From NCBI RefSeq assembly GCF_964355755.1, contig NC_092670.1, positions 20,508,795 to 20,572,794 on the forward strand: 64,000 bases of DNA, read 5' to 3'. Positions within the stretch are counted from its first letter, which is position 1. Each line of letters begins with the position of its first letter. Below the pieces are notes generated by a model, which was not told where the DNA came from, did no database searches, and saw nothing but the letters and a program-made list of their open reading frames with translations. The stretch is from Antedon mediterranea (taxonomy: Eukaryota; Animalia; Echinodermata). This document shows positions 11,879 to 57,897 of this stretch, piece by piece. A program made the position numbers and the translations under genes.

Positions 11879-14800
11879 ATGGCTGCCACCGGAGTGTTAC
11901 CTTTCGTCAGAGGAGTAGATTTAAGTCAAAATAACTTCAAGGTTAGCTTATAAAAGTCGATAAAAACTAACATGAATTGTTTTTTATACTTATCTAAAAT
12001 ACAGAATATCATTTTAAAGCGTTTCTTTCACCAAATAAAGTTTAATAAATAGCTAGGCCTAGGCCAATCATTTCAGTAAATTCCTTCTTGCAATTGAAAT
12101 CCGAGCACTGTGGCGCTGCTGCCAAGTGATCAATCAACTGGTCACACCCCCGTCCCCTAGGCCTAGCAATATAAAACGACTTAAAAATGTCTTAATACTA
12201 TTATTTCAACTTTTAATATTATTAAAATTAATACAAATCATTATGCCTAACTAGAATAATATAACTGTATTTTAGAGAATGCATATGTTATGCGCGATTT
12301 GAACGATTTGCGCAATTTGAAATTGCGCAAAAAAAATCCTTGCGCAATTTGAATTGAAACATGTGTTTCAAATTGCGCAAGCAACGTATTAAATTGCGCA
12401 AGTAATCTGCAAATTGCGCAAGGTTTTTCGACAGATTGTGAAATCATGCACACCCATATTTTTATAGTAATTTCTAAGAATGATTCAAAATTAAAGATAA
12501 ATATCGCATTTCCTTATTTTAGTAGTGCAAATATAGTTATAAGTTAGCATACCGTCGAAGAACCGACGAAGGAAAACGAAGCGGTGGTGTTCCACCAGGC
12601 GGGCGTGGCGCGGGCGGCCGGCTATACTACTCTAGCCTAGCTAGGGTCTGGACTACTGATACTGACTAGGTTACATGGCCTAGCTTAAACTAATATTAAA
12701 AACTTAATTTTTACATTTATTTTGATTTATTTCAAGTTACAGTGATAATATTATTTAATTGTAATAATAAATGTTATGTATTTATTATACACATGTTATC
12801 TTCGCATTTATTATGTTTTATTTTGAGTTATTTAGTTTCCAATAAATTATTATAATACCGATTGTCTGGTAGAATTTTGTTGCGCAATTTGAAAATTTAC
12901 AGTTCGTTTTCAAATTGCGCAAAGGTGTCATTTTGCGCAAGAACTATCTTGCGCAATTTACAAATTGTGCAGCGCAATTTAAAATTGCGCAAAGATTTTC
13001 TTGCGCAAGTTGATTGCGCAATTTGAAATTGCGCAAAAAATCCTTGCGCAATTTTAAATTGCGCAAGAATTCTTTGCGCAATTTCAAATTGCGCAAGGAT
13101 TTTTTTGCGCAATTTCAAATTGCGCAAATCGTTCAAATCGCGCATAACACATACATTATTTGTTTTGTTTGTGTTTTAATTAATAATATTACATTTTTTA
13201 AAAACTTATTTGTTAATTAATAATTATGCCTAGTCCAGCAGTATAATATATTAAAAAAGAATGATTTTTGTTCATCTGCATTACAGTCAACCGTGCAATT
13301 TGTGAAATCCTGCATAAAACATTAACTGAATGACTTTCCAATGTAATAACATTAAAATTAACTAAGCCATATCTTTGCACTTTTTTAAAATTGATAGGAT
13401 GATGAATTCCCAAAACATGTTGCAGACATGTCTGGTCTCCGTTGGCTTCGTATCAACAAAACAAACCTGGACATGCTACCCGATGAACTTTCGCACCTAT
13501 CCAAACTTGTAAGTACAGTATTCATTAATTTTATTGCTTAACAAAAGTTATGACCTAACTAATTAGACAGTCTGACTAATTTTTTGTTTTTTTTTATAGG
13601 AACATTTACACATGTCAAGAAATAATCTAATACAGATACACGGAGACTTGCCAACTCTGAGTTGTCTGCGTACACTAAACTTGCGACATAATAAAATACG
13701 TAACTCTGGCATACCTAATGACGTGTTCAACCTAGAGGAGATTAGTGTAGTGGTGAGTTTGTTTTTGTGGCTTTGTAGTGTTGTTGAAATATACATAAAA
13801 TAAAAACTAAAACAGATCTTATGTAACAGCATCAATACTTAAATTCCACGATAATAATTATTTCTATATTACAGTGTCAGAAAATTATTGAAATCTCAAC
13901 TGTCTTTCCATAAGTAAAAGTAAATTGTTGTGTTTTCAGGATTTCAGTTACAATCAGTTATCAGCCGTACCAGAAGAATGTGAAAAGGCAAAGTCTCTAT
14001 TGGTGTTGAACTTAAGTCACAATAAGTAAGTTAAAAGATCCTATCAGCTTTTTTATCTCAATAATTAATAGAATTTCTACTAATACAGTCAAGTCTCCCA
14101 ATACTGGACTATCTGAAAACAGGAAACTTTCCCAAAACCAGACTTTTCTAAAGGTCCCAAGTTGCTCTTTATGCACTTGTCAATTGTATGACTCACTATA
14201 CGACCCCCGGGAGAGGTGCGTCATGGGTGCGTCATTTACAAATAATTACTGACGCAGGGGTGCGTCAAAAAACCTAGATGGTACGTCACATCAATGAACA
14301 AGGTGTGTCAATGTCCGTCACTTTACCACCCACCATATCATAAACAACATGGTCACAGTGCGTCAAAATGGGTGCGTCGTGGTCACCTAAAGGTAAGTCA
14401 CCTTTTTGACGCACGGGTGCGTCATGGTATTCAAAAGTATGACGCACATCGGACAAATGACGCACCTCTCCCGGGGGTCGTATAGTGGGTCATACAATTG
14501 ACAAGTGCATTACCATTAAACACACATTCCTAATACCGGACTTTCCAGAAAACCAGACCTATTTAGCCAGGCCAACGGTGTCCAGTATTGGGAGAGTTCA
14601 CTGTACCAGAACTTACAACAGTACTTAGTAGTAGCGGTTTGTGTGTGTTCACTTTCTATACTTAATCATACATTTATTTTTATTCTAGTATTCCATCAAT
14701 ACCAAATCAATTGTTTATCAACCTGACAGATCTTATCTACATAAATCTTAGTGATAATAAACTTGGTAAGTCATCTCAAATTAATAATTATTGAATTATA

Positions 14801-17800
14801 ATATAAGCACAGAATGTAAATATAAAGTCTGTAATGCAACATTTATATAGTGCCATTTTGTGAAGATCAGAGCGCTTTGAGTGTTTGTTAATTATGAAAA
14901 TGATAATTAATGTCTCTTTAACCCCTCCTTCCACTGGATAATTTCAGAAAACTGCTAAAATATTCTTGACACAATCTGCGAACAACAGACTTCATTGAAA
15001 AACATTATTATTTGATTACACATAACCTTGAAACTCCTATTTTCTCTTTTTGGTTAAGATACTTTCCCCTTGTCTTTATATATTTCATTTTTTTAAACAT
15101 TTTATTGAATGATTTTGTTATAGAATCACTACCTCCACAAATGCGACGTTTAACAAATTTACAAACACTGATCCTGAACAACAACCCTATTCTACATGTT
15201 CAGTTACGGTATGTGTAGCAATGCAAAAAGTTAATATATATCAGTTGGTTATTTTGACTATCAAACTTTATGTGACAAAAAATTGATGTGCCCATATATA
15301 GACATGATGTTGTCATCTTACTACCATATTTGGGTATATCACTACCATAGTTGGGTATATCACTACCATAGTTGGGTATATCACTACCATATTTCGGTAT
15401 ATCACTACCATATATGGCCACATCACACTTTTTTGTCAAACTAGTTTGATACTTAGTGTAGACAGAGTTTTGGGAAAAATAGTATCCCAGTTCTACAACT
15501 TTGATTGTAATTTTTTTTTTTTTATTTTGTTACAAATTTTGTTCTCAAGGCAAATCACTACCATGTCTCAACTGCACACTTTACACATACGTAACACGCA
15601 GCGTAACTACAACAACATTCCTCCGCAACTTGACATGCTGACATGTCTCGCAGATGTCGACGTTTCTCATAATGAACTTCCCAAAGTACCAGAGGCTTTC
15701 TATCGTTTGCCGTCATTGAAGCGATTGAATCTTAGCAGTAATTGTATTAAGGATTTATCAAGTAGTGTAGGTAAGGGTAAATCATAGATTTTTAATTTAA
15801 TTCAAAGTGACATTTATTTACTTCAAGAAAGACAGTTAACAAGATGTAAATAAAAAATACATGATAACAGTGGAAGAAGGCAAAAAAAAAGCAGAATGGT
15901 TGTGGAAGACATGCCTATTCGTGAGGTTAATAAAGACATGCCTATAGACAAAGATGATATTTAAACAGACAGATAAAAAAGAAAAGAAAAAACAGTCGTC
16001 TTCTGGTAAACATATTGAAGAGGCATGATATATATATATTTTCATCGTTTGAATAGAACAAAATAAGTTTACTTACTCATGCATCATAGCTTCTGTCCTT
16101 TGATCTTCATCCTCTTGTTCTAAGGCTCAAAAGAGGCCTAAATTTGTTAAAATGAAATACTATATAATATATATTATATAATAGCGTGTTCAAAACATAG
16201 AGGGTGTTAAAATAAAAAATAATACTATAATTATTATACTGCGATTTTAAACAACCATGTGTTTTTAGTAGAGCCTAAGGCTCTACAACAGACGACCAAA
16301 CCTGTTAAAATGAAAAACCATAGAGGGTGCTATAATTTTGAATACATCCAGGATTTGTAGTGAATCGTGTGTTTGCTAGGAGCTCCAAGCATGTCATGAA
16401 TGGTTAGAGAGAGACAAGAAATGTTATGAAGCTGCCTCAAAAAGACTGCTATAATTTATACATATCTCTTCTTATAGATTGTTGGGTCAACTTGGAGATG
16501 CTTAATCTCTCGCGTAACAAACTCTCAAGTCTTCCAGTAGCGATCTGTAGGCTTACCAGCCTTAAGAAACTTTACGTCAACTCAAATGAATTAGACTTTG
16601 AAGGAATCCCACCCAGTATTGGAAAGATGTCAAGTCTTGAGCAGTTCCTGGCTGCAAGCAATAAACTAGAACTCATACCAGAAGGCCTATGCAGGTAACA
16701 GAAACAAGTCATGCCTGACTGAACTCAGTCATGCTTGATTGCATTGTTTTAAAAATTACAGGATAATGAAGTATATTTAAAAAAAATGGGTGTTCAGTAC
16801 ATTGAATTAGTTAATTCTTATATAGCGCATTTAAGCAAGCTCTCTAAGTGCTGCACATTATTACCCCGATCATTTTTTGAAAAAAACATGTATGGTCAAT
16901 TTATGGATACATAATCCCATAATAATGCAGCTAGTGATCAGTTCACAATTGTGTCTTGATCTAACTGGGTGGAGAGAGGCAAATATAAGTAAAGTGACTT
17001 ACCTAAGGATACAACCAATGCGGCGAGAGTTGGATTCGAACCACGATCAATAATCCAACATCCAACACACTGCGCCACATACCCTCAATGTGGCAGAGTA
17101 TCACTGTAAAAATAAAATCTAAACTCTAAGCCCTGTAAGCAGGTTCCTACTCACCAAAGTTAACGATAGTTGTACCAATGAAACCAACTTAGCCTGGTAG
17201 GTAACATGCCTGTGATCTGTTACTGCTTATTTCATTGCTTTATAATATTTTGTAATGTTCAACTTTCAGATGTCCCAAGATCAAACGTTTAGTATTAAAC
17301 AGCAATTGTCTTGTTACTCTACCTGAAGCTATTCATCTCATTACTGATTTAGAGGTATTAACACTGTACATTTTTTTACTATGCATCTTTTATTTTAAAA
17401 TTATAATGATATTCAGTCCTGGAACAGGTAATAAGCAAAGACCAATCAGAATACCTGCTATAAAGTTCTGTCTACACTATCAAACTTTATGTGACAAAAC
17501 AAAATGTGATGTGCCCATAAATGGACATGATTGCTACCATATTTAAGCATATCACTACCATATTTGGGCACATCACACTTTTTTTGTCAAGCTTGTTTAT
17601 AAACAGAGCTTTACTCCATCCTATTTACTAGACTGTTAAAACATTTTATCCTATAATAGTGCACATACATTTAATTATATTTTAGAATAAGGATGATTGA
17701 TACAGATTAATTAATGTAGCAATAGCATTGATACTCTTACTGTTAAGCTCTGTCTACACTGTCAAAATTTATATGAAAAAAAAAGTGATGTGCCCATATA

Positions 17801-20800
17801 TGGACACGATGATATCATATAACTACCATATTTGGGAACATCCCACTTTTTTGTCAAATTAGTTTGATAGTGTAGACAGAGCTTTATTTACATATTTCCT
17901 TTTTTACATGCAAGATACTTGATGTTCGTAACAACCCAAACTTAGTGATGCCACCTAAACCTAGGCCTCAACAGAAGGGATCTGGACAAGAGTTCTACAA
18001 CATTGATTTCTCTCTCAACCACCAGTTGCGCCTGGCAGGTGCAGTGCCAACTACAAGCACATCTGCTACTCCAAGTAAGTTTTACTCCACCGCTTGGTTG
18101 ACAATACATAGGCCTAGAGAATAAATAATAATAATAGTTCATTCTTATATAGCGCATATAAGCAAGTTCTTATGCTTCACATTATTACCCTCGTCATTTT
18201 TTGGATCATACACGTATGGAAACATACTCCCATAATAATGCAGCTAGTAATCAGCGCAAAGTTGTGTCTTGATCTAACCGGTACCCATTTTATACACCTG
18301 GGTGGAGAGAGGCAAAAAGAAAAGTGTCTTGCCTAAGGATACAAATAATGTGGCGAGAGTTGGATTTGAACCACGATCAGTAATCCAACGTCCAGCACAC
18401 TGCGCCACACACCTGCACATTGTATACTGCATTTTTTTAGATTGAATATGATTAATTAAGATTGATTGTTAAAGATGTATTGTCCCCCAAAATCATGAGA
18501 AAAATAAAGATTTTTAAAATCGGACTTTGAATAGGCCATTTTGCAGTTTTAATGAAGTTGTTCACTTCCATAAGAAAAAAAACGGGGGAAAAAATTATTT
18601 CACCTATAAAAAGACAAAATAAACAGTTAAATTACCCAAAAACTCATTGTCTTCCAGACAATTTGACCATTTTTTGCTTTAAATTACATTTTTCTCAGGT
18701 AAATAAAATTTTTTCAGACCCAATTTTTTGTGAGAGTGAATAACTATTATGTGACATTAAAATAACATATTCAACAAAAAAATTAAAAAAAATATTTTTT
18801 TAGGGGGACAATATATTTTTAAGAATATCTACCATGCTTTATTTACCTTATGCACAAATTCAAATATTGAAGATTTGATTTCCGTTTGTTGTCGTCCTAG
18901 CAAAAGATCCAATTGCACGAAAAATGAGATTACGTCGAAGGAGACAAGAGAGTGAAGCGGATAAAGATCAAACCAAAGTTTTAAAGGTGAGTTTTGTGGT
19001 TGATTAATTTATGGTTTAAAGCAAAAGATAAACCTAATTTGAATATTGATTTATTCAAATATATTGTTTGAGGGGAAGGGCAGGGAAGGTATAAAAAGAA
19101 CAAACAATACCACCCAATCAAAAGTTTTGTCTAATTGTAATAGCTAACAACTAATCAAAACACCTATTGTTTCTTTAATCCAATGAGAACCATTGTCTTA
19201 TTGTTTTATGGCTTTAAACACTATGTTCAACCAATCAGAAAGTGTGTTTAATTGTTTATTAGTGAATTATACAAAGCTACTGAGGCGTGACAAGACGCCC
19301 TCCACTTTTTACTCAACCTGATCCACCCATGTAGCAATAACATAGTAAATCATTTAATTGACTGTATTTTCTGTGTTGATAAGTACATATTTTTCTGCAC
19401 CATATGTTTATGAAACATTAATGGTACTCAAGGTAAGTGTATATGATTTGAGTATAAAAATTGGACATATTCATAACTTATAATTAAATTAACATAATGC
19501 ATAGAGATATTATAGTGAACTATAATATCTCTATGCATAATGGTACTGCTTTTTCATTTGGTAAGCACTGATAGATGTATTATTTAGTCAAAGCATAGAA
19601 AATAATAATAGGTATTTGTATAGCGCCAGTATCAACTAAACCGACGCTTGTATTAGATGCTTTTTAGGTTCTTTTTTAAAAGTAGCAATAGATGTTGATT
19701 TAGTATTATGACGAGGTTAAAACATGGAAGAAAAAAAGCACTTCCATGGTTAAAGGATAAAAAATATCTAAATAAAATTATAATGTATTTATTATATTGT
19801 TCAATAATTTTATATAAATCAATTTACAGAGAGTCAAAACAGTTTAGTGATATCATAATTTGCCTTTTCTATTAATTAATCTTTTAATTAATTAATAGCT
19901 GTATAACAAGGAATGATATAACCATAATTAGTATTTAATTATATTATGTGTATATTATTTGACATTGACAGTTTTTAATTACAGACTACAAGGTCAAGCT
20001 AATTGAAATAACCCTTATGGTTATCAAGTGCTCTATTGTATTTCACAACTCATTATTCTTTAGCAATATTGTAACACAATTCTGATTTTTATCAGAATGG
20101 TTTTTTTTATTACAGGCCTTTTTGGTTAAGATTTTTGTATACCAAATCCTGGAAATTACTGTATGTTGTTTGTAAGTTTTTAGTAACTTGGTAGCTTGCA
20201 AAGATGATTACAGAAGCAAGTGAAAATTGTGTGTAGTGCTACAGATTATAGTACTTTTGTTTTTTGAAATTTAAATAACTACTATTGTAATCAAACTTGT
20301 TATTTGTAGGGTATGAGTGATTTGGCAGAGAAGAAAAACAAGGGTTTAACACGAATGGAATCTGAAGTCCAGGAAGTAGGGTGAGCATGAATCACATTTA
20401 TATTATATATATCCAAAGGCAAATTACTGAAAAAATGACAATGCTGTGGGTATCAGTGGCCGGATCCCAATGGAGATACAAAAAAAAAGTGAAAAGCTAA
20501 ATTAAAACGATAAAGTAAAACAGCCAGAACAGTTAGTAGAGCTTTCAGGCAACACTAGCCCTTCATCACTAGCCCTTCATCACTAGCCCTTCATCACTAG
20601 CCCTTCAACACTAGCCCTTCAACACTAGCCCTTCAACACTAGCCCTTCATCACTAGCCCTTCATCACTAGCCCTTCATCACTAGCCCTTCAACACTAGCC
20701 CTTCAACACTAGCCCTTCATCACTAGCCCTTCAACACCAGCCCTTCAACACCAGCCCTTCAACACTAGCCTTTCATCACTAGCCCTTCAACACTAGCCCT

Positions 20801-23800
20801 TCATCACTAGCCCTTCAACACTAGCCCTTCAACACTAGCCCTTCATCACTAGCCCTTCATCACTAGCCCTTCAACACTAGCCCTTCATCACTAGCCCTTC
20901 AACACTAGCCCTTCAACACTAGCCCTTCAACACTAGCCCTTCATCACTAGCCCACACTAGCCCTTCATCACTAGCCCTTCATCACTAGCCCTTTATCACT
21001 AGCCCTTCATCACTAGCCCTTCATCACTAGCCCTTCAACACTAGCCCTTCAACACTAGCCCTTCATCACTAGCCCTTCATCACTAGCCCTTCATCACTAG
21101 CCCTTCATCACTAGCCCTTCAACACTAGCCCTTCATCACTAGCCCTTCATCACTAGCCCTTCATCACTAGCCCTTCATCACTAGCCCTTCATCACTAGCC
21201 CTTCATCACTAGCCCTTCATCACTAGCCCTTCATCACTAGCCCTTCAACACTAGCCCTTCATCACTAGCCCTTCATCACTAGCCCTTCATCACTAGCCCT
21301 TCAACACTAGCCCTTCAACACTAGCCCTTCAACACTAGCCCTTCATCACTAGCCCTTCATCACTAGCCCTTCATCACTAGCCCTTCATCACTAGCCCTTC
21401 ATCACTAGCCCTTCAACACTAGCCCTTCATCACTAGCCCTTCATCACTAGCCCTTCATCACTAGCCCTTCATCACTAGCCCTTCATCACTAGCCCTTCAT
21501 CACTAGCCCTTCATCACTAGCCCTTCATCACTAGCCCTTCATCACTAGCCCTTCATCACTAGCCCTTCATCACTAGCCCTTCAACACTAGCCCTTCAACA
21601 CTAGCCCTTCAACACTAGCTCTTCAACACTAGCCCTTCAACACTAGCCCTTCAACACTAGCCCTTCATCACTAGCCCTTCATCACTAGCCCTTCAACACT
21701 AGCCCTTCAACACTAGCCCTTCAACACTAGCCCTTCAACACTAGCCCTTCAACACTAGCCCTTCAACACTAGCCCTTCAACACTAGCCCTTCAACACTAG
21801 CCCTTCAACACTAGCCCTTCATCACTAGCCCTTCATCACTAGCTTTTCATCACTAGCCCTTCATCACTAGCCCTTCATCACTAGCCCTTCATCACTAGCC
21901 CTTCATCACTAGCCCTTCATCACTAGCCCTTCATCACTAGCCCTTCATCACTAGCCCTTCATCACTAGCCCTTCATCACTAGCCCTTCATCACTAGCCCT
22001 TCATCACTAGCCCTTCATCACTAGCCCTTCATCACTAGCCCTTCATCACCAGCCCTTCATCACCAGCCCTTCATCACCAGCCCTTCATCACCAGCCCTTC
22101 ATCACCAGCCCTTCATCACCAGCCCTTTATCACCAGCCCTTTATCACTAGCCCTTCATCACTAGCCCTTCATCACTAGCCCTTCATCACTAGCCCTTCAT
22201 CACTAGCCCTTCATCACTAGCCCTTCAACACTAGCCCTTCATCAGTGCAAGTTATAGTTTATAAACACTGTATATTAATATAACATAAATTGATATTATT
22301 TGTTGCCAAAATGCTAGCAAAGATATAATGGTGAGACATCACCAAACTTAATATATATTGTTAATGTTGTCTACTGAACCACTTTAGAAATCAACAGCTT
22401 TAGCACTGAAAGTGTCATTCAGTATAAAGATAAAATAATTATATAGTAATATTCAATTCTTCAGTTGTATTATCCTTTTATGGACCAACATATTAAATAT
22501 CATGCCTTGTGTCACTCACTGCATGTTTCGCTCAGTTTCTGATGGCTTATCTGATTATATTGTTTGTTAATAGACACAAAAGCTGGCTGGACAACTTAGA
22601 AAAACCACAACTAGATTACAGTGATATATTTTCGTCGGATGTTGGACAGCTTCCTTGCGTAGAAGTTTGGCAAATTGAGAATTTTGTTCCGATAGAAGTA
22701 GAAGAAAGTAAGTTTAATAATCATTTTATTTCCCATGACAAATCACTTTACAAATCATAATTCTTGGTAGTGACTTGATGGCCTTCAAATAGAGTTTTGG
22801 TTTGCACTGGACACCAAGAACATCTTCAATCTATAAACACTGACAGACTTTTGCTGGCAACTGATTGTTTGTTTGTTTTTGTGATTGATTGTAAAATTGT
22901 TTTTTTTTTTAGTTTATATGTAGTCACTCGAGCAAATGATACTTTGTTGTTTTGTTTGTATACATATGTTGATTTTGGTCGAAATAAATTTTAAATTGAA
23001 CTGGTACTATTAAATATTTTACACATTTTATTTCAGCTCTACATGGTAAATTCTATGAAGCCGACTGCTATATTGTCTTAAATGTAAGTCTTAAAAAAAT
23101 ATTTTTACTGCTCTATAGTTATTTGGTTTTGCCAAACCTCACATACTAAACATTGTGCTAATTTTCTTTTAAACGACACTCCAGTGGCCGTATCCACAAA
23201 TTTAGTTATTTTCCTTAAATACAAATTATTTAAATAAGAATTTCACTTCACAAGTGGTATTCATTTGAATGATTAACTTGACTATTATTAATTCATTCAT
23301 TTCCTTTATTTCGGATAGTAAATCGACATACAAAGCATACAAAAAACAAGGAGAGAAAACATTTCACCAGGAAATTAACAATATAAGCATCCTCACTAGC
23401 CTATAATCATTATACACCTTCAAAAATATATTCATAAAATCAATTTCTTTTACTAGACTACTCTCGATGATAGTGAAAACCTTTTTTGGCAAATTTATTA
23501 TTGGATTGGAAGCGAAGCAACAGTAAGTAGTATTATTATATACTTTTATTTAAAAAAACAATGTAGTGATATTATAACTTGTGGGCAATGGCCAGATTGC
23601 ATGTAACCCTTTAATACAAGCTCTGAAAGATTAAAAATACACCAATATTTAAAAGACATGAAAAGATATAATATGAAAAAATACAATAGGATTAGGCACT
23701 AAGCATGTAGGTAAAATACTTTTTTAACTTAATTTAATGCTATGATATACCATTAAATAATGTACTCATATTTTGTTTGCGTATTACATTTTGATTTCAT

Positions 23801-26800
23801 TTTATTATTTATGTGTTTGTTTAGCTTGACAAAAAAGCAAGTTCGGCAATCCATGCCGTTAACCTGCGTAACTTGTTGGGAGCTCAGACTAGGACAATCC
23901 GTGAGGAGATGGGTGATGAGAGCGAGGAATTTATGGAGTTGTTTGGGGACGTGGCGTACATTGAAGGTGGAACGTTGAGTGGGTTCTATACAGTTGAGGA
24001 CATCTCGTTTACTGTGAGGCTCTACAGAGCGTCTGGTACACAGAATATTCATTTAGAACCTGTGAGTATTGTGTAAATTCATAGATTTTCTTACCCGGTG
24101 GATTGGTTCACAAAATATATATGTATCAGGGGGATTACCACCTATCGGATAGGACAATGATTCATTTTCTATTGGTAATCCTTGGCCACGTGTGCCTAAA
24201 GACATCAAATAAAGCACAATTACAGGTTTTAAAAACTAAAAAGTATGTACTTTGCTAATAAAATAATAAAAAAATATTTTTGCTTTAGGTACCAGTGGAC
24301 AAATCTTCACTTGACCCTAGGTATACCTACTTACTGGACAACAGACTAAGCATTATGATATGGTATGGTGACCAGTCCAAATCATTGACCAGGTCAAAAG
24401 CGAGGTATGTTCATCACATGTTCAAATACTGCACAGAACCAATATTTACTGCAGTAACTTAATGTTGCCTTGAATGTAGAATATTGAAAAACAAATTTAA
24501 ATGTATAATATATATGTTTATATATTTGAATGTATGATAAATCCAAAGGCAAATTACTGAAAAAATGAATGTGTATATGGAGATACAAATAAAATACAGT
24601 AAGCAAAAAGTTAAATCAAAACAATAAAGTAAAACAAAGTAGAGTTTTAGGAATAACACCAATTGTTCTTATTTATATGTATTATTAGATTGATGGCAGA
24701 AAAGATAAACAAAATGGAGAGAAAAAATAATGCTAATATACTGATGATGACACAAGGCTCAGAAATAAATGAATTCTGGGAAATTCTTGGTGGCTTCGAT
24801 ATCGATTTTAAACCAACTGTAAGTTGCACCTTAAACTTGTTTTCTAAATATGCTGTCTTTTCTAAATATTCTGTATACTCGATTTTTATTGCACTTATAG
24901 TATAAATGAAATGTTATATTCTATGCTGTTGAAAATCGAGATGGAATAGATTTAAATGAGACTACCCGTGTTAAGTCATATTAAAATAGTGTTTTGTTTT
25001 TCCCCTAGCCTTGTGTAGAAGACTTCACACCAATGAAACCAAAGCTGTACCAAGTTGGCCTTGGTATGGGGTACCTGGAACTCCCACAAGGTAAGTTTGA
25101 AAGAGTCTTTAATCCTGAGTTTTCTTTAGTACCAACTGTACTCTATATAAAGTTCTGTCTACACTATCAAACTTTATGTGATAAACAAATGTGTTTCATA
25201 TCACCAAATTTGGGCATATCACTACCATATTTGGGTATATCACAATTTATTTGTCAAACTAGTTTGTTAGTGTAGACAGAGCTTTAGGCCAGCCTACAAA
25301 TTCAGTTTTCTATGTGTCATTCTGTCTGAAAAAAAAAACATGCAATTAAAGATGGTATGTACTAAATTCTTAAATCTGAAGTAAAACACTTTGTTTTTAT
25401 ATTTTCAGTTGAGCTACCAAAGAACAAGTTGAAACAATCCTGTTTAGATACTAAGCACGTTTATATCCTGGATTGTGGAGCTGATATATTTATTTGGTAA
25501 GTTTTCAACAACAATACTGGAGTGAAGCAAACATTTATTTTCCAGTAAACTAAAGTTACTGCAGTATTATAAAGATTACCATGTCTCTTTCCAAAGTAGA
25601 CTATTATTGCTTTTGTTCATTTTTAGGATTGGTAGAAAGTCAAGTCGTCTTGTCAGAGCTGCTGCCCTCAAACTTGCGCAGGAGTTATGCAGTATGATAA
25701 TAAGGCCGTCCGTTGCTATTGTTGTTAGAGTTCTTGAAGGGTAAGTGTTAGTGTGCGCCCCTCAGACACCAATACTCCTCCCTACCAACCCTCACCCATC
25801 TAAACACCAGTTTACTTTATAATTTCTTTTAGAATTCTAAACTTGGTATTCTCACCCTGTTGTAATTTTCTTTTCTATATACATTTTCTTAATGCTTGAT
25901 ACTAAATATAACAGGATCTTCTTTCTGAGAGCAATAGGCTAAAGCTCTGTCTACACTATCAAACTTTATGTGACAACAAAATTTGATGTGCCCATATATG
26001 GACATGATGATGTCATATCACTACCATATTTAAGCATATCACTACCATATTTAGTCGCATCACATTGATAGTGTAGAAAGAGATTTGGAGAGTATCACCA
26101 ATGCTAAACATAATACAATAAATCCTTATGGTATACCCAACAGGGTGTCGCCTAAGGGTGTCGCCAAGTGAGGGAGTGGTTCTACTGTATATTCCAGACA
26201 GGATGATGCCCACAAAACAATTGTTTGCTCCCAAAAATGTTATATGGAGAAGGCTGTAAGAAAGAATCTTAAGAGAAGATGCTATGTTGGTGTCAATGTA
26301 GGCTTGTGAACCTGCACAGTATCCATCATCTTGTAGACAAAAATTATCGAAAATAAATGTTTACCTCCCAGATACGAACCATATGTTTTCAAGCAACATT
26401 TTGAAGTATGGGATGAAATACTGGCGGTCGACTATACAAAGACTGCCGAAGCCATTTTCAAATCAATGGCGTACGACATGTGGTAAGATGACGAGGCCAG
26501 TCAGTACCATATGTGTACTAATTAACTGCGTGCCTTTGTCATAGTCCTTACAACTCACAAAAGCGTGGAAACAATGCATGAAAAGTTATTGCGAAAATTC
26601 ATTTTTAACTTCGCATGCTAAAAGACAATGTTTTGTACCAATTTAGATTAAACAATTAATAGTAACCCATAGATATACAATATGAAATGTTTTTTAAAGT
26701 ATTTCTAGTTTATTACTCATGAATTAAAACATTTTTACATAAATTTGTAGTATAAAAAATTTGCTCAGCAAAGTTGTTTGGCTGTTTTCGTTTTGATTTA

Positions 26801-29800
26801 GGTTTTTTTTCACTAATTTGCCTTTGGATTAAGTAAAAATATAGTGAATATAGCTGACAGTATTCCAAGTAAATAGTCATACTTGGACTCACTATGGAGT
26901 TGCCAGGATTCATCTGATTTATCTGTCGCTTCATGCTCTGGGAAAACCATTTCTTTTATTTTGCTATATAAAAAAATGTACAAAAAGCAGCAAAAGCTGA
27001 AAGAATTGTATTTACATGATATAAAAATATATAAAAATGTAAAAGTATAACAAATTTGGGCAGCACACACACAGAAAAAAAATACAATATTATAGCAATA
27101 AAAAAAAAACATAAAAAATGCCATTAAAATTACGGATGATTGTGAGAACCTACATTACACATAATCACGTATTATGAATTACTTACTGATTTTGGTTGAA
27201 ATTTATCTGATGTGTTTATTTTATTACTTTTGTTAATATAACAATTTTTATAATATAAAGGTTTTTAATAATTTTATAACTATATTTTGTGTGGTTGAAT
27301 TTTTTCCCCCTAAATAGTAAAATGTTATACTGCAATATCAACAATTGTTATATTTCAATGCTGTTTGTATAATATTTATTAATAGATTTTACAGTAAGAA
27401 AGATTACATGATTTTTATAGGATTCTTTCCTATTAGATTAGAAGAATTATACACACTTCCATCAGTCACGTATACTCCCTCCAACCTTATCAGACTAAAT
27501 GAAGGTTATTTAAATGATTCTCTATACTGATAGGTTTCGAACCCTAACTTTATTTTTCACAACCTGAAACACAACTAACTAACACATTTTCAATCCATCA
27601 ATAACTAGTTAATTCAAATAATTATTGCATCTTGTAGTAAATTAGACTCATATTTCTTTGTAAACAAATATGACAGCTAATAATATTTTTCTATCAGCCC
27701 ACTAATTCCCTAACATTTTTGTGTACAATACTTGAAAAACAAAACAAAAATTGGACAAATTAACATATTATCACCTTTTTCTCAAACTTTTGTTTAATGT
27801 GATTTATTTTTTTCTCTAGCACTGAGAGCCAAATCTTCAGGGCAAAATTCCAAGGCTGGGATAACGTTCTCGGAGTAGACTACACAAAAAAAGTAGAAGG
27901 AGCTACTCGTCAAATTCGTAAGGTGAGCCGTAGTATGTGTGCTCTTGTTAAGCCAAGATACAGCAGCGGTACATATATAATATTTCTCAACTTGAAACAG
28001 TATATACAATACAATGTTTTGTTAACATAGATTGTGTCTTTTTTTTTTCAGGATGATTCAGAGTTTAAGACAGATCTGTCTGCGCTGTTTATGAACCGAC
28101 AGCCATCAATGACAAATACGGAATGTGTAAGTTGTTTGTATGTAGTAACAATAACGTACCTGAAATACCTAACAGTGAATGTTAATAAATAGATACTATT
28201 CATAATAATTAATTTTTTATTTAGGAACAATTGGCAGATGAGTGGAATGCTGACTTGGATGTCATGGAATCATTTGTTTTGGAGAATAAGAAGTTTGTCC
28301 GTTTGCCTGAGAATGAATTGGGTAATATGTTGTTTTGAATCCTAAAGGCCAACTTTACTGAGAACCTTATTTTGACAACGACGATGTACATATGATTTCA
28401 GAAATATTGTGAGATTTACGATTTTGATGTGCGTGCTTGCTGTACATCTGTGACGTCAAGTGTGCTTAGCAAAATCTACCTCATGAGTAATAATATGGTT
28501 CTTGATATTAAAGTTTCTTTTAATTCCTTGTTCGTTTTCTCATGTTTTAAGTCACTATGAATCTTGCTGCATATAAAGTGTGAGGCAGATATATGTTGAA
28601 TGCACTACTACTCAACAATAACCTTATTTTTGTATTTGTACAGGTCATTTCTACAGTGGTGATTGCTATGTTTTCCTTTGTCGATATTGGGTTCCAAAAG
28701 AAGTTGAGGAGAAACCCGACGTTGAAGGCGGGGACAAAACAGATGATGATGAAGACGAAGAGGACTCGCAGGAGGATGAGATCGCGTACACCGTGTATTT
28801 TTGGCAGGGTAGAGATTCAAGCAACATGGGGTGGCTTACGTTTACGTTCAGCTTACAGAAGAAATTTGAATCACTGTTTGGAGAGAAGCTTGAAGTGGTT
28901 AAGCTGTGCCAGGTAATGCTTACATCCCACTGTGTTTTCATATTATAAACTATTGTTTCGATTGATATATGTAGCGTGATATATATGTTCATTGTCTTCC
29001 AATATCCTGATACCCTGTTAATCAAATCAGGTATATACATATATATGTCGCTATCCAGTCGAGAACTATACCATGAAAGCCCCAGTGGTCTAATGGTTAG
29101 GACATCTGCATATCAAGCAGAAGGTCCGGGTTCGAATCTTGGTTGGGGCGACTTTTTCTCATTCTCACAGATTTCCTCATCTTATTGTTTCAAATTAATT
29201 AATTAAATTTCAGTATATCACCGGGCGGTTTAGAATTAATGTTCTATGCCTAATATGTTTATATATATATATATCATTTACTGTTGACAACCATTTACAT
29301 AATGTACAATAATCCATTCGGCTTACCGTACATATATTGCAATTACCATGGAGAGTGGGGTTTATTAAGCTGATTATTCTTTATTATTAATACTCCTACT
29401 TTTTATTTTCCACTCTCACAATACAATGAGCTTTTTTAGTCGGAATTGGCATGATAAAAGGTTTGATTATTATTGTTAAATTTCAGCAACAAGAGAATCT
29501 AAAGTTCTTATCACACTTCAAATATAAGTTTATCATCCACCGAGGCAAGAGGAAGGCTGTACCAATCAAAGGAGAAGAACTTAACCCCAAGTTCTACCAT
29601 GTTCGAGCAAATGGTGGATCATTGTTCACTCGCTGTGTTCAGGTTCATCCAACGTCTAAATGGCTTAATTCAGAATTTTGGTAAGTACATGATAAGTATA
29701 TCCATAAGTAAGTTACGTACAGCAAACATGTATTACACACACCAGGAGGCACACCATAAGAACACCTGTGTTGAGTTTTCTAGGTGGTGTGGAAGGGTAT

Positions 29801-31392
29801 AATATATCTTTCACTATATATAGTGTATCTATAATATTACATATTTTAATACTTAGAAAACAATAATTTCATTGCAGTTACTGCAGGCATATTCAAATGT
29901 TTACAAGAATTCTGATTTTAAATAATCCTAATACTTTTTTCAGCTATATCCTGATGGTACCTTTTAACAGTGAAGACATGAAGGGAATTGTTTACACATG
30001 GATAGGGGATACGTGTGATGGAGAGGTGTCGCGCATGGCCGAGGAAATGGCCTATGACATGTTTGGTGTTAGTACATTTGATTAATTCAGACTTAAGTTC
30101 TGTCTAATACACTATCAAACTAATTTGACAGAAGAAGTGTAATGTGCCTAAATATGGTAGTGATATACCTAAATATGGTAGTGATATACCTAAATATGGT
30201 AGAAATATGGTAGTGATATGACATCATCATCATATATGGGAACATAACATTTTTTTGTCACATAAAGTTTGATAGTGTAGACAGATAGTAACAAACTATT
30301 GCTGTGTAGAGGCCCACACCAAAGAAAAGAGGGTTAATGAAGAAATACAGTAGAACCTCTGGGACACCTCTATTTATGGGACACCTCTATTTATGGGACA
30401 CCCCAATTAAGGACACACTTTGCCATAAAACAAACAAGGGGAAATATATATTTGAACACTATGACTATTAAGGAATTGGGTCCCCTGAAGGTGTCCCCAT
30501 AATAGACATTTTACTGTATATTAGAGCCCAAACTTTTAAAATGTGAAATTGCTTATTTTTAAAAGAAATATTTTCTACATGTAGGAACATTACAGTCACC
30601 AGCTGTTAACAGAGGGAGAAGAGCCAGAGAATTTCTGGTGGGTTGCCCTCGGTGGCAAGCGACCTTACGACACCGATACTGACTACATGGAGCATGTACG
30701 TCTATTCCGCTGCTCTAATGATAAAGGATTCTTTACTGTATCTGAGAAGTGCTCAGATTTCTGCCAGGTAAATAACTATATTTGACTATTGGCTACCGGC
30801 CATCATTTCATTCATTTATTTGACCAAAAAAACCCAATAAAAACAGGTCAGGAAAAACAAAAGCTACCCAGGACACTGTGACTCAACGAGTAAGTAATTC
30901 CTAATGATATTAATTGTTTATTGATATCAATTTTTTTTTGGTAGGATGATCTTGCAGATGATGATGTTATGATTCTGGATACAGGTCATGAGGTGTACCA
31001 ATGGGTCGGACCACTCTGCAGTGACACAGAAGTTAAACTGGCATTCAAAAGTGCTCAGGTAATGATTAGTACACTATCAAACTTTATGTGAACAAAAATA
31101 TGTTATGTGTCCATATATGGACATGATGATGTAATAATCACTACCATATTTGGGCATATCACTACCATATTTGTTCACATTACTTTTTTTTTTAACATAG
31201 CATGTATAATATGAATATACATATAATGTAAATGGGTTTTTGTTTTAGGTCTACATCCAGCACTTACGGAACAAACAACCTGACGCTCCCCGAAAACTAG
31301 CAGTCATAAAGAAGGGTCGTGAGCCGTGGAAGTTCATCAGATGTTTTCACGGATGGGGTAAATTTAAGACACATGCTGCAAGTAATATATAA
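11879..31392 (+). CDS. FLII: Flightless-I (LRR domain plus six gelsolin-like domains), about 30 coding exons
   Basis: Exon 1 [21 protein letters not shown]; LRR exons; [13 protein letters not shown]; gelsolin exons ([73 protein letters not shown]); ends [19 protein letters not shown] at 31390-31392. Confidence 0.97.
12286..13149. mobile_element. Non-autonomous DNA transposon with TGT...ACA termini and 4-bp TSD (Ginger-like), subterminal TTGCGCAA repeats
   Basis: TIR TGTTATGCGCGATTTGAACGATTTGCGCAA / TTGCGCAAATCGTTCAAATCGCGCATAACA; CATA duplicated at 12282-12285 and 13150-13153. Confidence 0.85.
14086..14603. mobile_element. Tc1/mariner-type MITE (CAGT...ACTG, TA TSD) containing a nested element
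   Basis: TA|CAGTCAAGTCTCCCAATACTGGAC ... GTCCAGTATTGGGAGAGTTCACTG|TA. Confidence 0.8.
14172..14509. mobile_element. PIF/Harbinger-type MITE nested in the Tc1/mariner-type MITE
   Basis: ~50 bp TIR TGCACTTGTCAATTGTATGAC...GGTGCGTCAT, TTA on both sides, internal TGACGCA repeats. Confidence 0.85.
18125..18411 (-). mobile_element. tRNA-derived SINE; second copy 16812-17085 (-)
   Basis: Minus strand: A box TGGCGCAGTG, B box GGTTCRAATCC, central CCTTAGGCAAGACACTT...CTCCACCCAGGTGTATAAAATGGGTACC, tail GCGCTATATAAGAA...(ATT)n. Confidence 0.8.
20550..22244. repeat. 14-bp tandem array (CTAGCCCTTCAWCA)n, about 120 units, in a FLII intron
   Basis: Directly visible; two main unit variants (CATCA/CAACA). 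Confidence 0.99.
26372..26486 (+). other. FLII: Duplicated alternative exon of Flightless-I (paralogue of exon 27820-27922), alternative terminal or cassette exon
   Basis: CAG acceptor with AG at 26370-26371, same phase as the donor after 25740; reads (G)[37 protein letters not shown], homologous to (G)[24 protein letters not shown]. Confidence 0.8.
29079..29150 (+). tRNA. tRNA-like cloverleaf with anticodon ATC (Asp-like); probably a tRNA pseudogene or SINE head
   Basis: GCCCCAG/TTGGGGC acceptor stem, GTCT/GGAC D stem, TCTGC/GCAGA anticodon stem, CCGGG-TTCGAAT-CTTGG T arm, TTTTT at 29153-29157. Confidence 0.55.
30348..30516. mobile_element. Tc1/mariner-type MITE (TA|CAGTAGAACC...ACTG|TA) with GGGACACC subterminal repeats; related ends near 26140-26190, 47855-47901 and 48960-49005
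   Basis: Termini and repeated GGGACAC/GTGTCCCC motifs. Confidence 0.65.
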
Positions 31393-32673: not shown

Positions 32674-34998
32674 TTAATTACTGTATACAGGTCGCAAGTT
32701 CACTTTCCAAACATGAAGAGCATTATCATAAAATGAACAGGAAGCAATCATTTCATTTGACCCTTCCCAGCAGGCCTTGTCAGCCATATTTTCTTTAAGG
32801 TCAATCTCAGATATTGATTTCTCATCAACATGTTCATTTTTAGGAGTTTCTTTTGAAGTTGAATCGGCTTCTATATGATGTACACTTGAATCTTGATTTT
32901 GTAATGAAATCTCTGCAACACGATACCAATCCACGCCATAGGCTAAAGATTCGTGTTTTTCATATGAAGCGATGATTGGCTGAGGACATCCATCTGAAAC
33001 AAAAGAAATGTATTGTTGACATACGTTTACTGTAAAGGTTCTAACAATACATTCTGCACTCTTTTAGATATAATTACTGATGGAGACTAGACTTGCCTGA
33101 TAATGAGCAATTCAAGATGTGAAAACCATTATGCATACAGGCAGCAAGTAGTACCTCTCCATTAGTTGGATGCCATTTAAGCCTCCATACTCCGCCTCCT
33201 ACATTTATCTCCGATAGAGGGCTCCTCATCTTTCTTGTATCCCATAATAAGATTGTCTCATCATAGCTATTAAAGAAACAATGCAGTAATTATAATTTGC
33301 AGCAACACACATAATGTGCCACAGTTTTTACTTTGTAAATGCTTCGTTACCAAATAACTGAATATACAGACTTCTGATTGGTCATTTAATTATAATTTAT
33401 TCTTCCTCACCTTCCTGTTGCTATGATATTTTCTTTGTGTATATTGCTATGGATACTACAAACACCCATAGAATGGCTTTTACTGACAAACGTTGGCATT
33501 TCACATGATGTTCGGACATCCCAACCTTTTAGTCGGCAATCATCACCACCTGAAAAGCAAAGATTCATTTTGGCGTTCAACATTCAGATGTTTATCGCAG
33601 ACATGTACTAGATTTATATAACATTTTGAAATTGATTAGAAAAATAGAGATCATTCTATACCTGTATAAATAATACTAGGTTGCCAGTAGTTAAAAGCTG
33701 CTATCCATGCTTCAAAACCATGAGCTTTCCACTGATTGACCTGTGTTAACGATCGGTCAAAGGTCACTTTGAATGTAGTGATCATTCCTTTTGAATCACT
33801 GGTAACAATATGAGGCTCTGAGCTGAATAGTAAAGTTAAATAACACATTTATTTTTCTATTTAACAAGCAATCATTTCTTACTGTATACAAATTGATTGG
33901 ATTGAAAAGTAAAATTGCAAATATCAGAGTTTACATATATTTTAATTGAATAAATTGAATAATGAGATACCCTTCTTTATTTTGTGTTTACTTACTTCTG
34001 ATACTTAGCATTAGACCAATCTAATGACAATCCTAATCTGTCATCTCCAATTAAACTTGAACATAATTCATTAATGACCTGAAAAATTAGTTTGAATCGG
34101 CTATGAATACAGTATATAAAATCACAAAGTTACTTATAATATAAAAAAATACAAAGAATTTGGATACTACGGTACCTTATTGTCTAGTTGAAAGAGCTGT
34201 AATTTGCCATCAGCGTTCACAAGAGCCAACTCAGAAGGTCTGTCTGATGAGTTTGGATTCCTAAATTGAAAATAATTAGGATTAATATATTGATTAAAGC
34301 AAATCCTGCCAGTTACGTAAAAGTAACAGTTTTAACTTGTATTTATATAATTTATATTATAAGAGACAAAGAGTTTATTTATATAATTTATATTATAACT
34401 TAAGAGACAAAGAGTTTGCGCTGCTGCTGCACACATATACATGTGGGGTATTATTAAAATGAACAGAATTGTATTAGGAAGGTTTTTAACTAAATTTTGA
34501 AAATTAACCGTTTTCTTGGTTCCAATATGGGGACAAAGTGTTTAAAATCCGTACTTTTATCACATATCTGTTTGTTGATTTTGGGTATAGTATATTTGTT
34601 ACAACTATGATATATATAACCATTTCATATCCAAAATTGCTGCCATATCTTGTCGCTGCGTTTCTTGTAATTTATTTTCATCACAATGGAATAATAGCAA
34701 CCGTCCAAGTCTCTTCTTTGGTATATCACTGGTAACATCCTGTGGAACAAAAATAATGATATTGTTATTTATTAGTTTTGGCTAAGACTTTTGTTACACA
34801 ATATTTTTGCCATTTGTCAATTGACCATTTACTCACATTTGGATCAACCCCGTCTGAAGTTGCTAGCTGATATGTTCCAATTGCAAGAACATTGTGGTGC
34901 GAAGGTGATGGACAGAATTCTGCAGAGTCTGCACTATACTCTGTGTTAAATATGTGTAAGGTTTCGGGATGTGATGCTGATGTTACTTGTGCAGCCAT
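32674..34998 (-). CDS. DPH7: Diphthine methyltransferase/methylesterase DPH7 (WDR85), multi-exon WD40 protein
   Basis: [12 protein letters not shown]...[84 protein letters not shown]. Confidence 0.93.
32994..33096 (-). other. GC-AG intron in DPH7
   Basis: Minus strand TCA G|GCAAGT...TTTCAG|AT GGA TGT; this donor gives the needed phase 1, while the nearby GT (GTCTAG) is out of frame. Confidence 0.8.
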
Positions 34999-35963
34999 TA
35001 GAACCACAATTTTCTTGTTCTTTTTAAATTTTTTAATGTTATACCTCAGACCTAAACAAAAACAGATATTAAATACGATTAAATCTAGGCCGATCCTGCC
35101 AATCAACTAGTCAAATCCCCAGGTCTAATAAATGTACCATGGTCGTTAGCATCCCTTATATAGTAGGTCCAAGCCTACCTATAGGTCAGCCAGGAGTCGG
35201 CATGGGAAGGCCAGGCCAGCCTACTAATAGCTAGCTTGATCCACACGTGGACTAAAATGAATAGGCCTAGCATAAATAGTTGTGTGTTTGAGTGACTATG
35301 GTAACAACAAAGTAGAAAGCAATACTGCAAATACAACTGATAGTAAGTCCTAAACGTATTAATAACTTTATATACACTTATAACATAAAAGAAAATCTTA
35401 AAAAGTAGACACACGAAGTAAACAAAAGAAGGCAAGAAAATCAAAATAAACAACAGCGCCACCAAGTTCAGTGAAGTATGATGGGATACTCTGCTTAACA
35501 ACGATACACAAAAAAGTTAGCACTATCATATTTCTAAACAAAATTACTTTAAAAAGTACTAACAAGTTTTTATTGAATAAAAATAGCTAATTTTGTTGTA
35601 GCTCTAACTAGAGATCTAAGAGACTAGCCTAATATTCAGGCCTTATATAGTTAGGACTAGGCCTAGGCTTAGCTAGCTAGGCTAGGCCTTATTATATTAT
35701 AGCTAGCTAGGCCTAGGCCGACCGAGTAAATCCACCCCTACAATTCAGGTGGGTGTATGAATGAGTGGACAGGTGGAGTCTGATTGGCCCTCTCTGTCCT
35801 GTCTAGCCCAAGCCTAGTATAGGGGCCTGCCTATCCATTGTACTGTGTGTCTAGAATTGGATACTGTATTATTCATCGAAAAATCAAATGCCTACTTTTA
35901 CTTTTTTCTTACATTATTTATTTAGCAATCTTTAACACAGAGAGAGAGTGTATAAAACAAAAC

Positions 35964-40206: not shown

Positions 40207-40915
40207 ACTTTGACCTTTTGGTATGCACTTTGACTCCATGTTATCTCTCTACATTTTAAGAGACACAGTTGGAATTTGAGATAAATACCGTATGGCCAAG
40301 TGGATTAATGTATTATATTAAAATATTAATAAATGTAAATATATTTTTATAATTTAAATATCTCAATTCTTTGTAAATAATTAAAACATTTTTGTTGTAG
40401 ATTTTATGCCTGAATATAAAAGTATAAAAATTTATACTAATATTTACAATAATTTGTTCTGGTTCTTAGTAACCCAATAACAAGAAACGCAACATAATAA
40501 ATGAAATAAAATGTATACATACAAACTACAGAAAGTAATACAGAATGAATGTAATTTTTTTTTATTAATTAGCATAAAGTACATCCTTAAGTTGCTGTAA
40601 TATTGTTGTTGCAACCCTGAGCTGCATCTCAGTGCAGTCTTGGAGGATAACTCCAACCTGTAGGGAGTAATTGCTTTTTATTTGACTATTTTTTCACTCA
40701 ATAACACTGACCAAAGAAGAATTATTTAGACTTGGCACAGGGCCAGACTATGCAGGTGTCCAATCATTGTTGTTTGTTACCTGCTGACAGCTGTTACTCT
40801 TGACTCATGTTGCAGGTGTTTTATTCTAATGCATCTACTATTTCCAAAAACCGATTATGGACATTTTTGTAACGTTTCTTTCCCAAAATAACTTTTAATG
40901 TTTGTTAGATTCTTG

Positions 40916-43900: not shown

Positions 43901-44063
43901 AACACATGTGGTTACACGTCTGGGCTAAGCCTAACAATTGTTTCTCTCAATAGAACTAAACTATCTTACCTCTAAAACCCCTTTTTAGCATGTTTGCAGC
44001 AGGAATTCTAGATTTTAAAAGCGTTGAAGACAAACATTGATTTGCCAATGTTTTAAATGCCAT
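40916..44063 (-). CDS. ATPAF2: ATP synthase F1 assembly factor 2 (Atp12), multi-exon
   Basis: Basic presequence-like exon 1; ERKKIYKSVSITESEGVFEINLDQRKLKTP, ALAIAVCTEWD, FLDTDTV, EWDPLLDWFN, LSRLEEEFQ|ISKWGEVEWGH; TGA at 40916-40918. Confidence 0.95.
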
Positions 44064-44138
44064 AATTTTAAAGGATTTAAATTAAGCCTACTAGGCCGCC
44101 TAAATCAGTTTGTTTACAAAAAAATTACGACCGCCGCA

Positions 44139-45936: not shown

Positions 45937-45944
45937 CCGCCGCA

Positions 45945-46143
45945 CTTTATTGAGGAACGGCTGTGTCGACGCCTACATAAACTTTACTGAAACATGTTTT
46001 AATTGGTTAGAATTCCAAGCCTTGTATTTGTTTAGCCAATAAGCATACGCCATTTAGTTGTAGTAAATACAGACGTTATGTAGTAAATAATTAGAACATT
46101 TTAACAACCATTCAACAAGAGCAGATTGAAGGAAGACAATTTC
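45945..46143. promoter_or_regulatory. GID4 proximal promoter, likely the remaining part of the ATPAF2/GID4 bidirectional promoter
   Basis: Lies between divergent start codons; ATTGG near 46002 and CCAAT near 46036 in opposite orientations. Confidence 0.45.

Positions 46144-50371: not shown

Positions 50372-57897
<7,526 letters not shown>

What the first reader, a model, noticed from the sequence alone, without database searches (positions are those of the whole stretch)
26372..27922. Tandemly duplicated Flightless-I exon: a possible switch to a half-length LRR+G1-G3 isoform
Seen: the donor after 25740 (phase 2) has two compatible acceptors. Exon A (26372) reads [38 protein letters not shown]. 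Exon B (27820) reads [28 protein letters not shown]. They share the E..F...F..WD..L.VDYTK pattern but are well diverged in DNA, and A has stayed open, which suggests an old, selected duplicate. A ends in TAA (26484-26486) followed by 1.3 kb of AT-rich, UTR-like sequence. The stop overlaps a donor-like TG|GTAAGA, which would instead make a 111-nt in-frame cassette onto B. No in-frame donor joins A to the next exon (28052), so simple mutual exclusion is unlikely. Established: gelsolin-family proteins are two three-domain halves, and three-domain members such as severin, fragmin and CapG exist. Inference: alternative termination gives a Flightless lacking G4-G6. A's tail MAYDMW also resembles MAYDMF near 30048-30065.
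Basis: partly seen in the sequence, partly recalled or inferred. Interest (0 to 1): 0.78.

Follow-up and report, generated by a model that had tools for sequence, protein, structure and literature searches.

The report
Ancient optional duplicate exon in Flightless-I
A feather star's flightless-I gene carries a second, diverged copy of the exon that ends its third gelsolin domain, and gene models of sea stars, sea urchins, acorn worms and amphioxus include such a copy as an in-frame insert, so it likely lengthens the hinge between the protein's two halves rather than cutting the protein in half.

Summary
The duplicate is real; the half-length isoform is not supported. The 30-exon model using exon B equals the Antedon mediterranea FLII record P0002 exactly. 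Exon A (26372-26482, 111 nt, phase 2-2) has the best-scoring of 102 GT donors in its intron. Its 'stop' is the donor's own GTAA: 6 of 8 constitutive phase-2 donors here read into an immediate stop. FLII isoform pairs of Acanthaster, Patiria, Ptychodera and Glandiceps differ only by this 37-residue insert; Diadema and amphioxus models also carry two copies. Antedon A matches sea-star A at 26 of 36 residues and groups with echinoderm A copies (100/99); an Antedon-specific duplication is rejected (p-AU 0.0004). The one spliced run available skips A, so inclusion in Antedon is not shown. A repeats the last segment of G3 plus the start of the G3-G4 linker. The likely product is a regulated, 37-residue-longer FLII. 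One origin versus several, tissue and function remain open. Not found in the papers searched, but present in RefSeq predictions.

The parts
11879..31392 (+). flightless-I (FLII) gene, 30 exons in the B-only isoform: LRR region plus six gelsolin domains; stop at 31390-31392
   Evidence: Exon model with GT-AG introns; translation identical to P0002, 1243 aa; Pfam LRR and Gelsolin
25627..25740 (+). Upstream constitutive exon (most of the second half of G3), ends in phase 2
   Evidence: its last 30 nt are the loose end of the X1 contig in front of exon B
26372..26482 (+). Exon A: 111-nt phase 2-2 duplicate of exon B, likely an optional cassette adding 37 residues (junction codon with B reads Cys)
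   Evidence: Open frame; 26 of 36 residues identical to Acanthaster and Patiria cassette exons; echinoderm-A clade 100/99
26483..26488 (+).
   Evidence: Score 8.1, rank 1 of 102 GT sites in the intron, mid-range among the gene's 29 donors (1.8-12.2)
26352..26371 (+). 3' splice site of exon A, on the weak side
   Evidence: Score 5.1 against 1.1-15.2 for 29 constitutive acceptors; at least 8 other AGs of the 90 in the intron score higher
26517..26522 (+). ACTAAT, a Quaking-type motif 35 nt downstream of A (motif identity recalled; function untested)
   Evidence: 36 such hexamers on the + strand of the window
26575..26580 (+). TGCATG, an Rbfox-type motif 93 nt downstream of A, with a second GCATG at 26613 (motif identity recalled; function untested)
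   Evidence: 5 on the + strand and 9 on the - strand of the window; 0 of 29 constitutive donors have both motifs within 150 nt
27820..27922 (+). Exon B: constitutive, phase 2-0; encodes the end of G3 and the start of the G3-G4 linker
   Evidence: Spliced X1 contig covers it and joins it to 28052; in P0002
28052..28126 (+). Next constitutive exon (rest of the G3-G4 linker)
   Evidence: Joints 27920>28050 and 28126>28225, GT..AG, in run X1

Best explanation
Exon A is an ancient tandem duplicate of the flightless-I exon that encodes the end of gelsolin domain 3 and the start of the G3-G4 linker, and it is likely spliced as an optional 111-nt in-frame cassette in front of exon B, giving a full-length FLII 37 residues longer. 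SHOWN: the duplicate, its frame and splice sites, its orthology with sea-star and sea-urchin copies, skipping in one spliced run, and isoform pairs with and without the insert in the annotated proteins of four relatives. INFERRED: (1) Antedon includes A in some tissue or stage. (2) Inclusion is regulated, perhaps in muscle or neurons, given the weak acceptor and the downstream Rbfox- and Quaking-type motifs. (3) In the long isoform A, being contiguous with the G3 strand, supplies the closing helix of G3, and B becomes extra linker with a second copy of the conserved WDDV-x-VDYT motif. (4) This loosens or re-registers the tether between the barbed-end-capping half (G1-3) and the formin-binding half (G4-6). 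The confidence given is for the cassette reading. Steps 2-4 are each about even odds or less.
For: Isoform pairs differ by one clean 37-residue deletion in Acanthaster (P0138/P0012), Patiria (P0139/P0024), Ptychodera (P0134/P0135, P0008/P0133) and Glandiceps (P0137/P0136). 37 residues equals 111 nt, the distance to A's best donor. Of 178 stored FLII proteins spanning the region, 9 have two copies (Glandiceps 2, Ptychodera 2, Diadema 2, Acanthaster, Patiria, amphioxus hybrid), 167 have one and 2 none. Antedon A is closer to relatives' A than Antedon B is to their B (23 vs 18 and 23 vs 17 of 30 for two sea stars). It keeps 10 of the 14 positions that are at least 85% conserved across single-copy FLII. 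Echinoderm A is a starred clade in both trees, and an Antedon A+B clade is rejected (p-AU 0.0004). Both copies align to the last residues of gelsolin G3. The division of labour between the halves is from PMC7509490 (abstract, passages). The role of gelsolin's G3-G4 linker on actin is from 10.1101/2024.09.10.612341 (passages).
Against: No inclusion of A is shown in Antedon. The only spliced contig (run X1, one run, tissue unknown) joins 25740 directly to B, and the single Antedon record lacks A. The relatives' isoforms are computational gene models whose read support I could not see. Models of Asterias (2 species), Lytechinus (2) and Strongylocentrotus lack A. The Diadema models give inserts of 35 and 59 residues, not 37. 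A's acceptor is outscored by at least 8 decoy AGs. The deep AlphaFold model docked B with better confidence than A (pLDDT about 75 vs 35), though its alignment had 77 rows on B and 8 on A. Drosophila G4-6 does not bind actin (PMC7509490), so gelsolin's linker role may not carry over to FLII.
Confidence: 0.82

Rival explanations
1. Exon A is an alternative last exon: read-through of its donor meets TAA, and intronic polyadenylation yields an 847-residue LRR+G1-G3 protein that caps filaments but lacks the formin-binding half.
For: The stop is there. AATAAA/ATTAAA hexamers lie at 26647, 26723, 27097 and 27123. Two short unnamed ORFs with an A-type segment end just after it (P0147, P0148). Isolated G1-3 is active in Drosophila (PMC7509490, abstract).
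Against: 6 of 8 constitutive phase-2 donors also read into a stop, two of them as Trp-stop. The hexamer density is ordinary. Relatives' models run A into B. P0147 and P0148 lack the upstream exon, so they read as unspliced ORF calls. No other of 214 stored proteins ends within 45 residues of the motif, although my searches favoured full-length proteins.
Confidence: 0.06
2. Exon A was a cassette in the echinoderm ancestor but is now silent or decaying in this crinoid.
For: Not in the Antedon record. Skipped by the X1 contig. Weak acceptor.
Against: It has no indel or stop, an intact top-ranked donor, 72% identity to sea-star A, and higher conservation than the constitutive exon B.
Confidence: 0.08
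3. A substitutes for B (mutually exclusive use) through a splice junction I did not recognise, as the Saccoglossus models suggest.
For: Both Saccoglossus records (P0009, P0142) carry an A-type copy alone, followed directly by the linker.
Against: In Antedon A ends in phase 2 and the exon after B needs phase 0, and no consensus phase-0 donor lies near A's end. Seven other taxa are modelled with A and B together. The Saccoglossus models may reflect an assembly gap or a lineage-specific loss of B; I could not read its DNA.
Confidence: 0.04

Closest known systems
Flightless-I (FLII/fliI), gelsolin superfamily
   Same: LRR plus six gelsolin domains; the B-only isoform is identical to RefSeq XP_071963998.1.
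   Different: All vertebrate, protostome and cnidarian proteins examined have at most one copy of the G3-end segment. The papers read mention no such isoform.
RefSeq-predicted FLII isoforms X1/X2 of Acanthaster planci, Patiria miniata, Ptychodera flava, Glandiceps talaboti, and X9 of a Branchiostoma hybrid
   Same: Same duplicated segment at the same place. 37 residues in the four ambulacrarian pairs.
   Different: Unannotated in Antedon. The amphioxus copy is 32 residues and weakly groups with its own B (82/67), so it may be independent.
Tandem duplicated exon substitutions (mutually exclusive homologous exons; PMC9741552, passages; PMC8373072, listing and supplement search)
   Same: Ancient tandem exon duplicate kept under selection; that class is enriched in Z-disc and actin-binding genes and is often tissue-specific.
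   Different: Here the copies are used together (A+B versus B), not as a swap. Their 3' phases differ. FLII was not found in either paper's searched text.
COE/EBF H2d-H2a duplicated exon (PMC2394523, abstract)
   Same: A tandemly duplicated exon that is included next to its original and repeats a helix.
   Different: Inclusion became mandatory in vertebrates; in FLII it appears optional and is seen only in invertebrate deuterostomes.
Three-domain gelsolin relatives (CapG, severin, fragmin; caspase-made gelsolin G1-G3)
   Same: The duplicate lies at the G3/G4 boundary where these end.
   Different: No evidence that FLII is ended here; the stop is the splice donor. Severin and fragmin are recalled; CapG and G1-G3 appear.

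Membership tests
Flightless-I | N-terminal LRRs followed by gelsolin repeats; orthology to FLII | tested here: met
   Model identical to P0002; Pfam LRR_8 and Gelsolin; best hits are named FLII
Tandemly duplicated exon | Adjacent exons homologous beyond chance, same acceptor phase | tested here: met
   tblastn E 2.9e-05; both phase 2
Symmetric cassette exon | Length a multiple of 3, same phase at both ends, GT-AG sites, open frame when included | tested here: met
   111 nt, phase 2-2, donor rank 1 of 102
Symmetric cassette exon | Both skipping and inclusion transcripts exist | tested here: inconclusive
   Skipping shown in run X1; inclusion seen only in relatives' gene models, not in Antedon reads
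Symmetric cassette exon | Purifying selection on the coding sequence | tested here: met
   Protein level only: 26 of 36 identical to sea stars, above exon B. dN/dS not run, as no relative's DNA was available
Mutually exclusive homologous exons | Equal phases at both ends and never included together | tested here: not met
   A is 2-2, B is 2-0; 9 proteins hold both
Alternative last exon (three-domain FLII) | A stop codon that is not simply part of a splice donor | tested here: not met
   6 of 8 constitutive phase-2 donors give the same read-through stop
Alternative last exon (three-domain FLII) | A used poly(A) site before exon B | not testable with these tools
   Only contigs were available; hexamer density is ordinary
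Rbfox/Quaking-regulated muscle or neural exon | Downstream motifs conserved in relatives, and tissue-biased inclusion | not testable with these tools
   Motifs present in Antedon; no relative's intron DNA and no tissue data

The most novel reading that the evidence does not exclude
A splice-controlled conformational switch, kept since the deuterostome ancestor or evolved up to three times: two copies of G3's closing helix and linker motif compete for one docking site. Muscle- or neuron-specific inclusion of exon A would then uncouple FLII's barbed-end-capping half from its formin-binding half. Saccoglossus would have fixed A and dropped B, and vertebrates lost A.
Probability: 0.15. Interest if true: 0.7.

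Novelty: new member of a known kind. Interest (0 to 1): 0.42.

Why it matters
FLII caps thin-filament barbed ends at the Z-disc and is a cardiomyopathy gene (10.64898/2026.06.02.729301, passages; PMC10544232, search listing). Unlike gelsolin it is not calcium-gated (PMC7509490), so how it is tuned is open. A cassette kept for roughly 480 million years or more (date recalled) that doubles the conserved G3-end and linker motif points to that segment as a control point. It gives a natural pair of isoforms to compare in capping and formin assays. It also adds a missing exon to the Antedon annotation, and it shows that a stop read at a phase-2 GTAA donor is uninformative.

Tried and rejected
No whole genome is held, so no genome-wide or DNA-level comparison with relatives and no dN/dS was possible. 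Run search: no RNA holder listed; X1 is only guessed to be RNA, though its contig is spliced at GT..AG joints. X1 shows no cover over 26075-26758. One search had given summed depths of 0.84 and 60.3 for bins 26188-26471 and 26472-26755. I take those to be stray pieces of repeat-bearing contigs, but the discrepancy is unresolved. Contigs drop rare variants, so neither result speaks to absence. The word-indexed search with exon A plus 12 intron codons found nothing. The A+B region search returned only 4 already-known proteins. The HMMER search with exon A gave 5 hits: 3 real (amphioxus FLII and two unnamed A-type ORFs) and 2 false repeat proteins, P0146 and P0149. AlphaFold was inconclusive on which copy closes G3. 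The deep, B-weighted alignment gave B ordered and A disordered. The 9-row neutral alignment put a helix in A at the G3-closing position, but at pLDDT under 40 with a mean of 46. No FLII structure was among the best 60 of 239 PDB hits shown. The trees (33 and 30 columns) cannot decide one origin versus several: all-A clade p-AU 0.44; ambulacrarian A 70/70; echinoderm A+B p-AU 0.33; hemichordate A+B p-AU 0.46. The MAYDM link to G5 was set aside as probably chance. Earlier findings: none.
Full report
Observation. I built the whole gene from coordinates: 30 exons from 11879 to the stop at 31390-31392, all introns GT-AG. With exon B its translation is letter for letter the 1243-residue record P0002, named flightless-1 homolog of Antedon mediterranea. 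Exon A lies in the 2079-nt intron before B. A and B share 40 of 73 nt ungapped, with least identity at third codon positions. A finds B at E 2.9e-05, with nothing else under E 0.4 in the window.

The stop is the splice donor. A's TAA sits inside GTG|GTAAGA. A matrix from the gene's 29 constitutive donors scores this site 8.1, first of 102 GT sites in the intron. A phase-2 donor starting GTAA or GTGA gives a stop on read-through, and 6 of the 8 constitutive phase-2 donors of this gene do so, two as Trp-stop exactly like A. The 1333 nt after A has ordinary intron composition and poly(A) hexamer density. A's acceptor is weak, 5.1 on a 1.1-15.2 scale, below at least 8 other AGs of the 90 in the intron. 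That fits a regulated exon but also counts against strong use.

Relatives. Of 214 stored proteins, 178 span the region: 9 carry two copies of the segment, 167 one and 2 none. The 9 come from Acanthaster, Patiria, two Diadema species, Ptychodera (2), Glandiceps (2) and a Branchiostoma hybrid, the last found by the exhaustive HMMER search. In four species the isoform pairs differ by one 37-residue block and nothing else, which is 111 nt. The Diadema models insert 35 and 59 residues, the amphioxus model 32. Both Saccoglossus models carry an A-type copy without B. Models from Asterias, Lytechinus, Strongylocentrotus and Antedon itself lack A. All these are computational gene models whose read support I could not see. 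Antedon shows that absence from an annotation is not absence from the genome, so the single copy seen in vertebrates, protostomes and cnidarians is a statement about annotated proteins only.

Selection and age. Antedon A matches the two sea-star copies at 26 of 36 residues. Over the first 30 residues A is better conserved than the constitutive B in all five comparisons. It keeps 10 of 14 near-invariant positions, with H, E and I substitutions shared by the other echinoderm A copies (conservation computed on 67 of the 77 rows of alignment A1, which I chose from 145 stored proteins). In two trees of 31 hand-picked rows (33 and 30 columns; Artemia dropped when the pattern failed) echinoderm A is a starred clade (99/99; 100/99). 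An Antedon-only duplication is rejected (p-AU 0.0004). So A predates the split of crinoids from other echinoderms, about 480 million years or more ago (recalled). Whether the hemichordate and amphioxus copies share that origin is unresolved: ambulacrarian A has 70/70, all-A is not rejected (p 0.44), and amphioxus A groups weakly with its own B (82/67).

Transcripts. One run, X1, has a 2461-nt spliced contig. Its loose end before 27819 is the last 30 nt of the upstream exon, and it joins B to 28052 and on at GT..AG. Skipping of A is therefore shown. Inclusion in Antedon is not.

How it likely works. Both copies align to the last 15 or so residues of gelsolin domain 3: B in P0002 and A in the long sea-star isoform. 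The rest of each copy is the start of the G3-G4 linker. The first 25 residues are as conserved across animals as the G3 core (0.78 vs 0.77). In gelsolin this linker mediates autoinhibition and, when active, lies on actin and positions the second half (10.1101/2024.09.10.612341, passages). In Drosophila FLII, G1-3 caps barbed ends without calcium, while G4-6 does not bind actin but binds the formin DAAM (PMC7509490, abstract and passages). I infer that inclusion of A lets it close G3 and turns B into extra linker with a second copy of the motif, changing the reach or coupling between capping and formin binding. AlphaFold did not settle which copy docks. A TGCATG at 26575 and an ACTAAT at 26517 follow A, a pair absent from the first 150 nt after all 29 constitutive donors. 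Their reading as Rbfox and Quaking sites is recalled and untested, and TGCATG is not rare on the other strand.

Comparison and novelty. This is a tandemly duplicated exon used additively, closer to the COE/EBF case (PMC2394523, abstract) than to mutually exclusive substitutions (PMC9741552, passages). Eight literature searches listed no paper on a duplicated FLII exon. Term searches for FLII gave no hit in the supplements of PMC5703972 (6 files) or PMC8373072 (1 file; GSN also gave none, so that file may not be the gene list), or in the main text of 10.64898/2026.09.05.749416. That preprint's supplements are closed and could list the exon. Passages of PMC7732498 and 10.64898/2026.06.02.729301 showed no such isoform. 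Subscription journals are largely missing from the library. The isoform is already implicit in RefSeq predictions for several relatives.

Verdict. The feature is real, ancient and selected. It is most likely an in-frame cassette (0.82) and unlikely to be a truncation switch (0.06). It is a new member of a known kind, interest 0.42.

Noticed in passing
window 31390: The FLII stop codon is polymorphic: contigs of DNA runs X3 and X5 read C for T at 31390, while X1 and X2 show no such change. From the window sequence, read-through would add 15 residues.
   Followed up: no
P0009, P0142 (Saccoglossus kowalevskii FLII models): Both carry only the A-type copy, followed directly by the linker. This is either loss of B with A taking over, or an assembly or annotation gap.
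   Followed up: partly
window 35900-48200: Neighbours of FLII include an LRR gene (weak LRR_9), an ATP12 gene and a Vac_ImportDeg (GID4-like) gene. From recall, DRC3, ATPAF2, GID4 and FLII are also neighbours at human 17p11.2, suggesting old microsynteny.
   Followed up: partly
window 3810-11026, 32677-35100, 50320-57900: Other genes: a MARVEL-domain gene (- strand), a ZNF598-type RING gene (+), a WD40 gene tail-to-tail with FLII (-), an acyl-carrier-type gene (+), and a Myb/SANT-like ORF at 53417-53635.
   Followed up: partly
window 29079-29150: tRNA-Asp-like element with the unusual anticodon ATC inside a FLII intron. DNA depth in that bin is about 10,000 times the single-copy level, so it is likely a tRNA-derived SINE.
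   Followed up: partly
window 20553-22244: A 14-bp tandem repeat, 121 copies, 96% matches, fills most of FLII intron 12.
   Followed up: no
window 15240-15470, 25150-25290, 25940-26080, 30090-30285, 31070-31200 and others: A very high-copy short repeat family with internal 21-bp units recurs in many introns, including just upstream of exon A; it looks MITE-like.
   Followed up: no
P0137/P0004 and P0134/P0008 (hemichordate FLII): A second small alternative piece of 6 residues in G1 distinguishes the Glandiceps isoforms; the Ptychodera isoform lengths differ by the same 6. It may be a conserved microexon or alternative donor.
   Followed up: no
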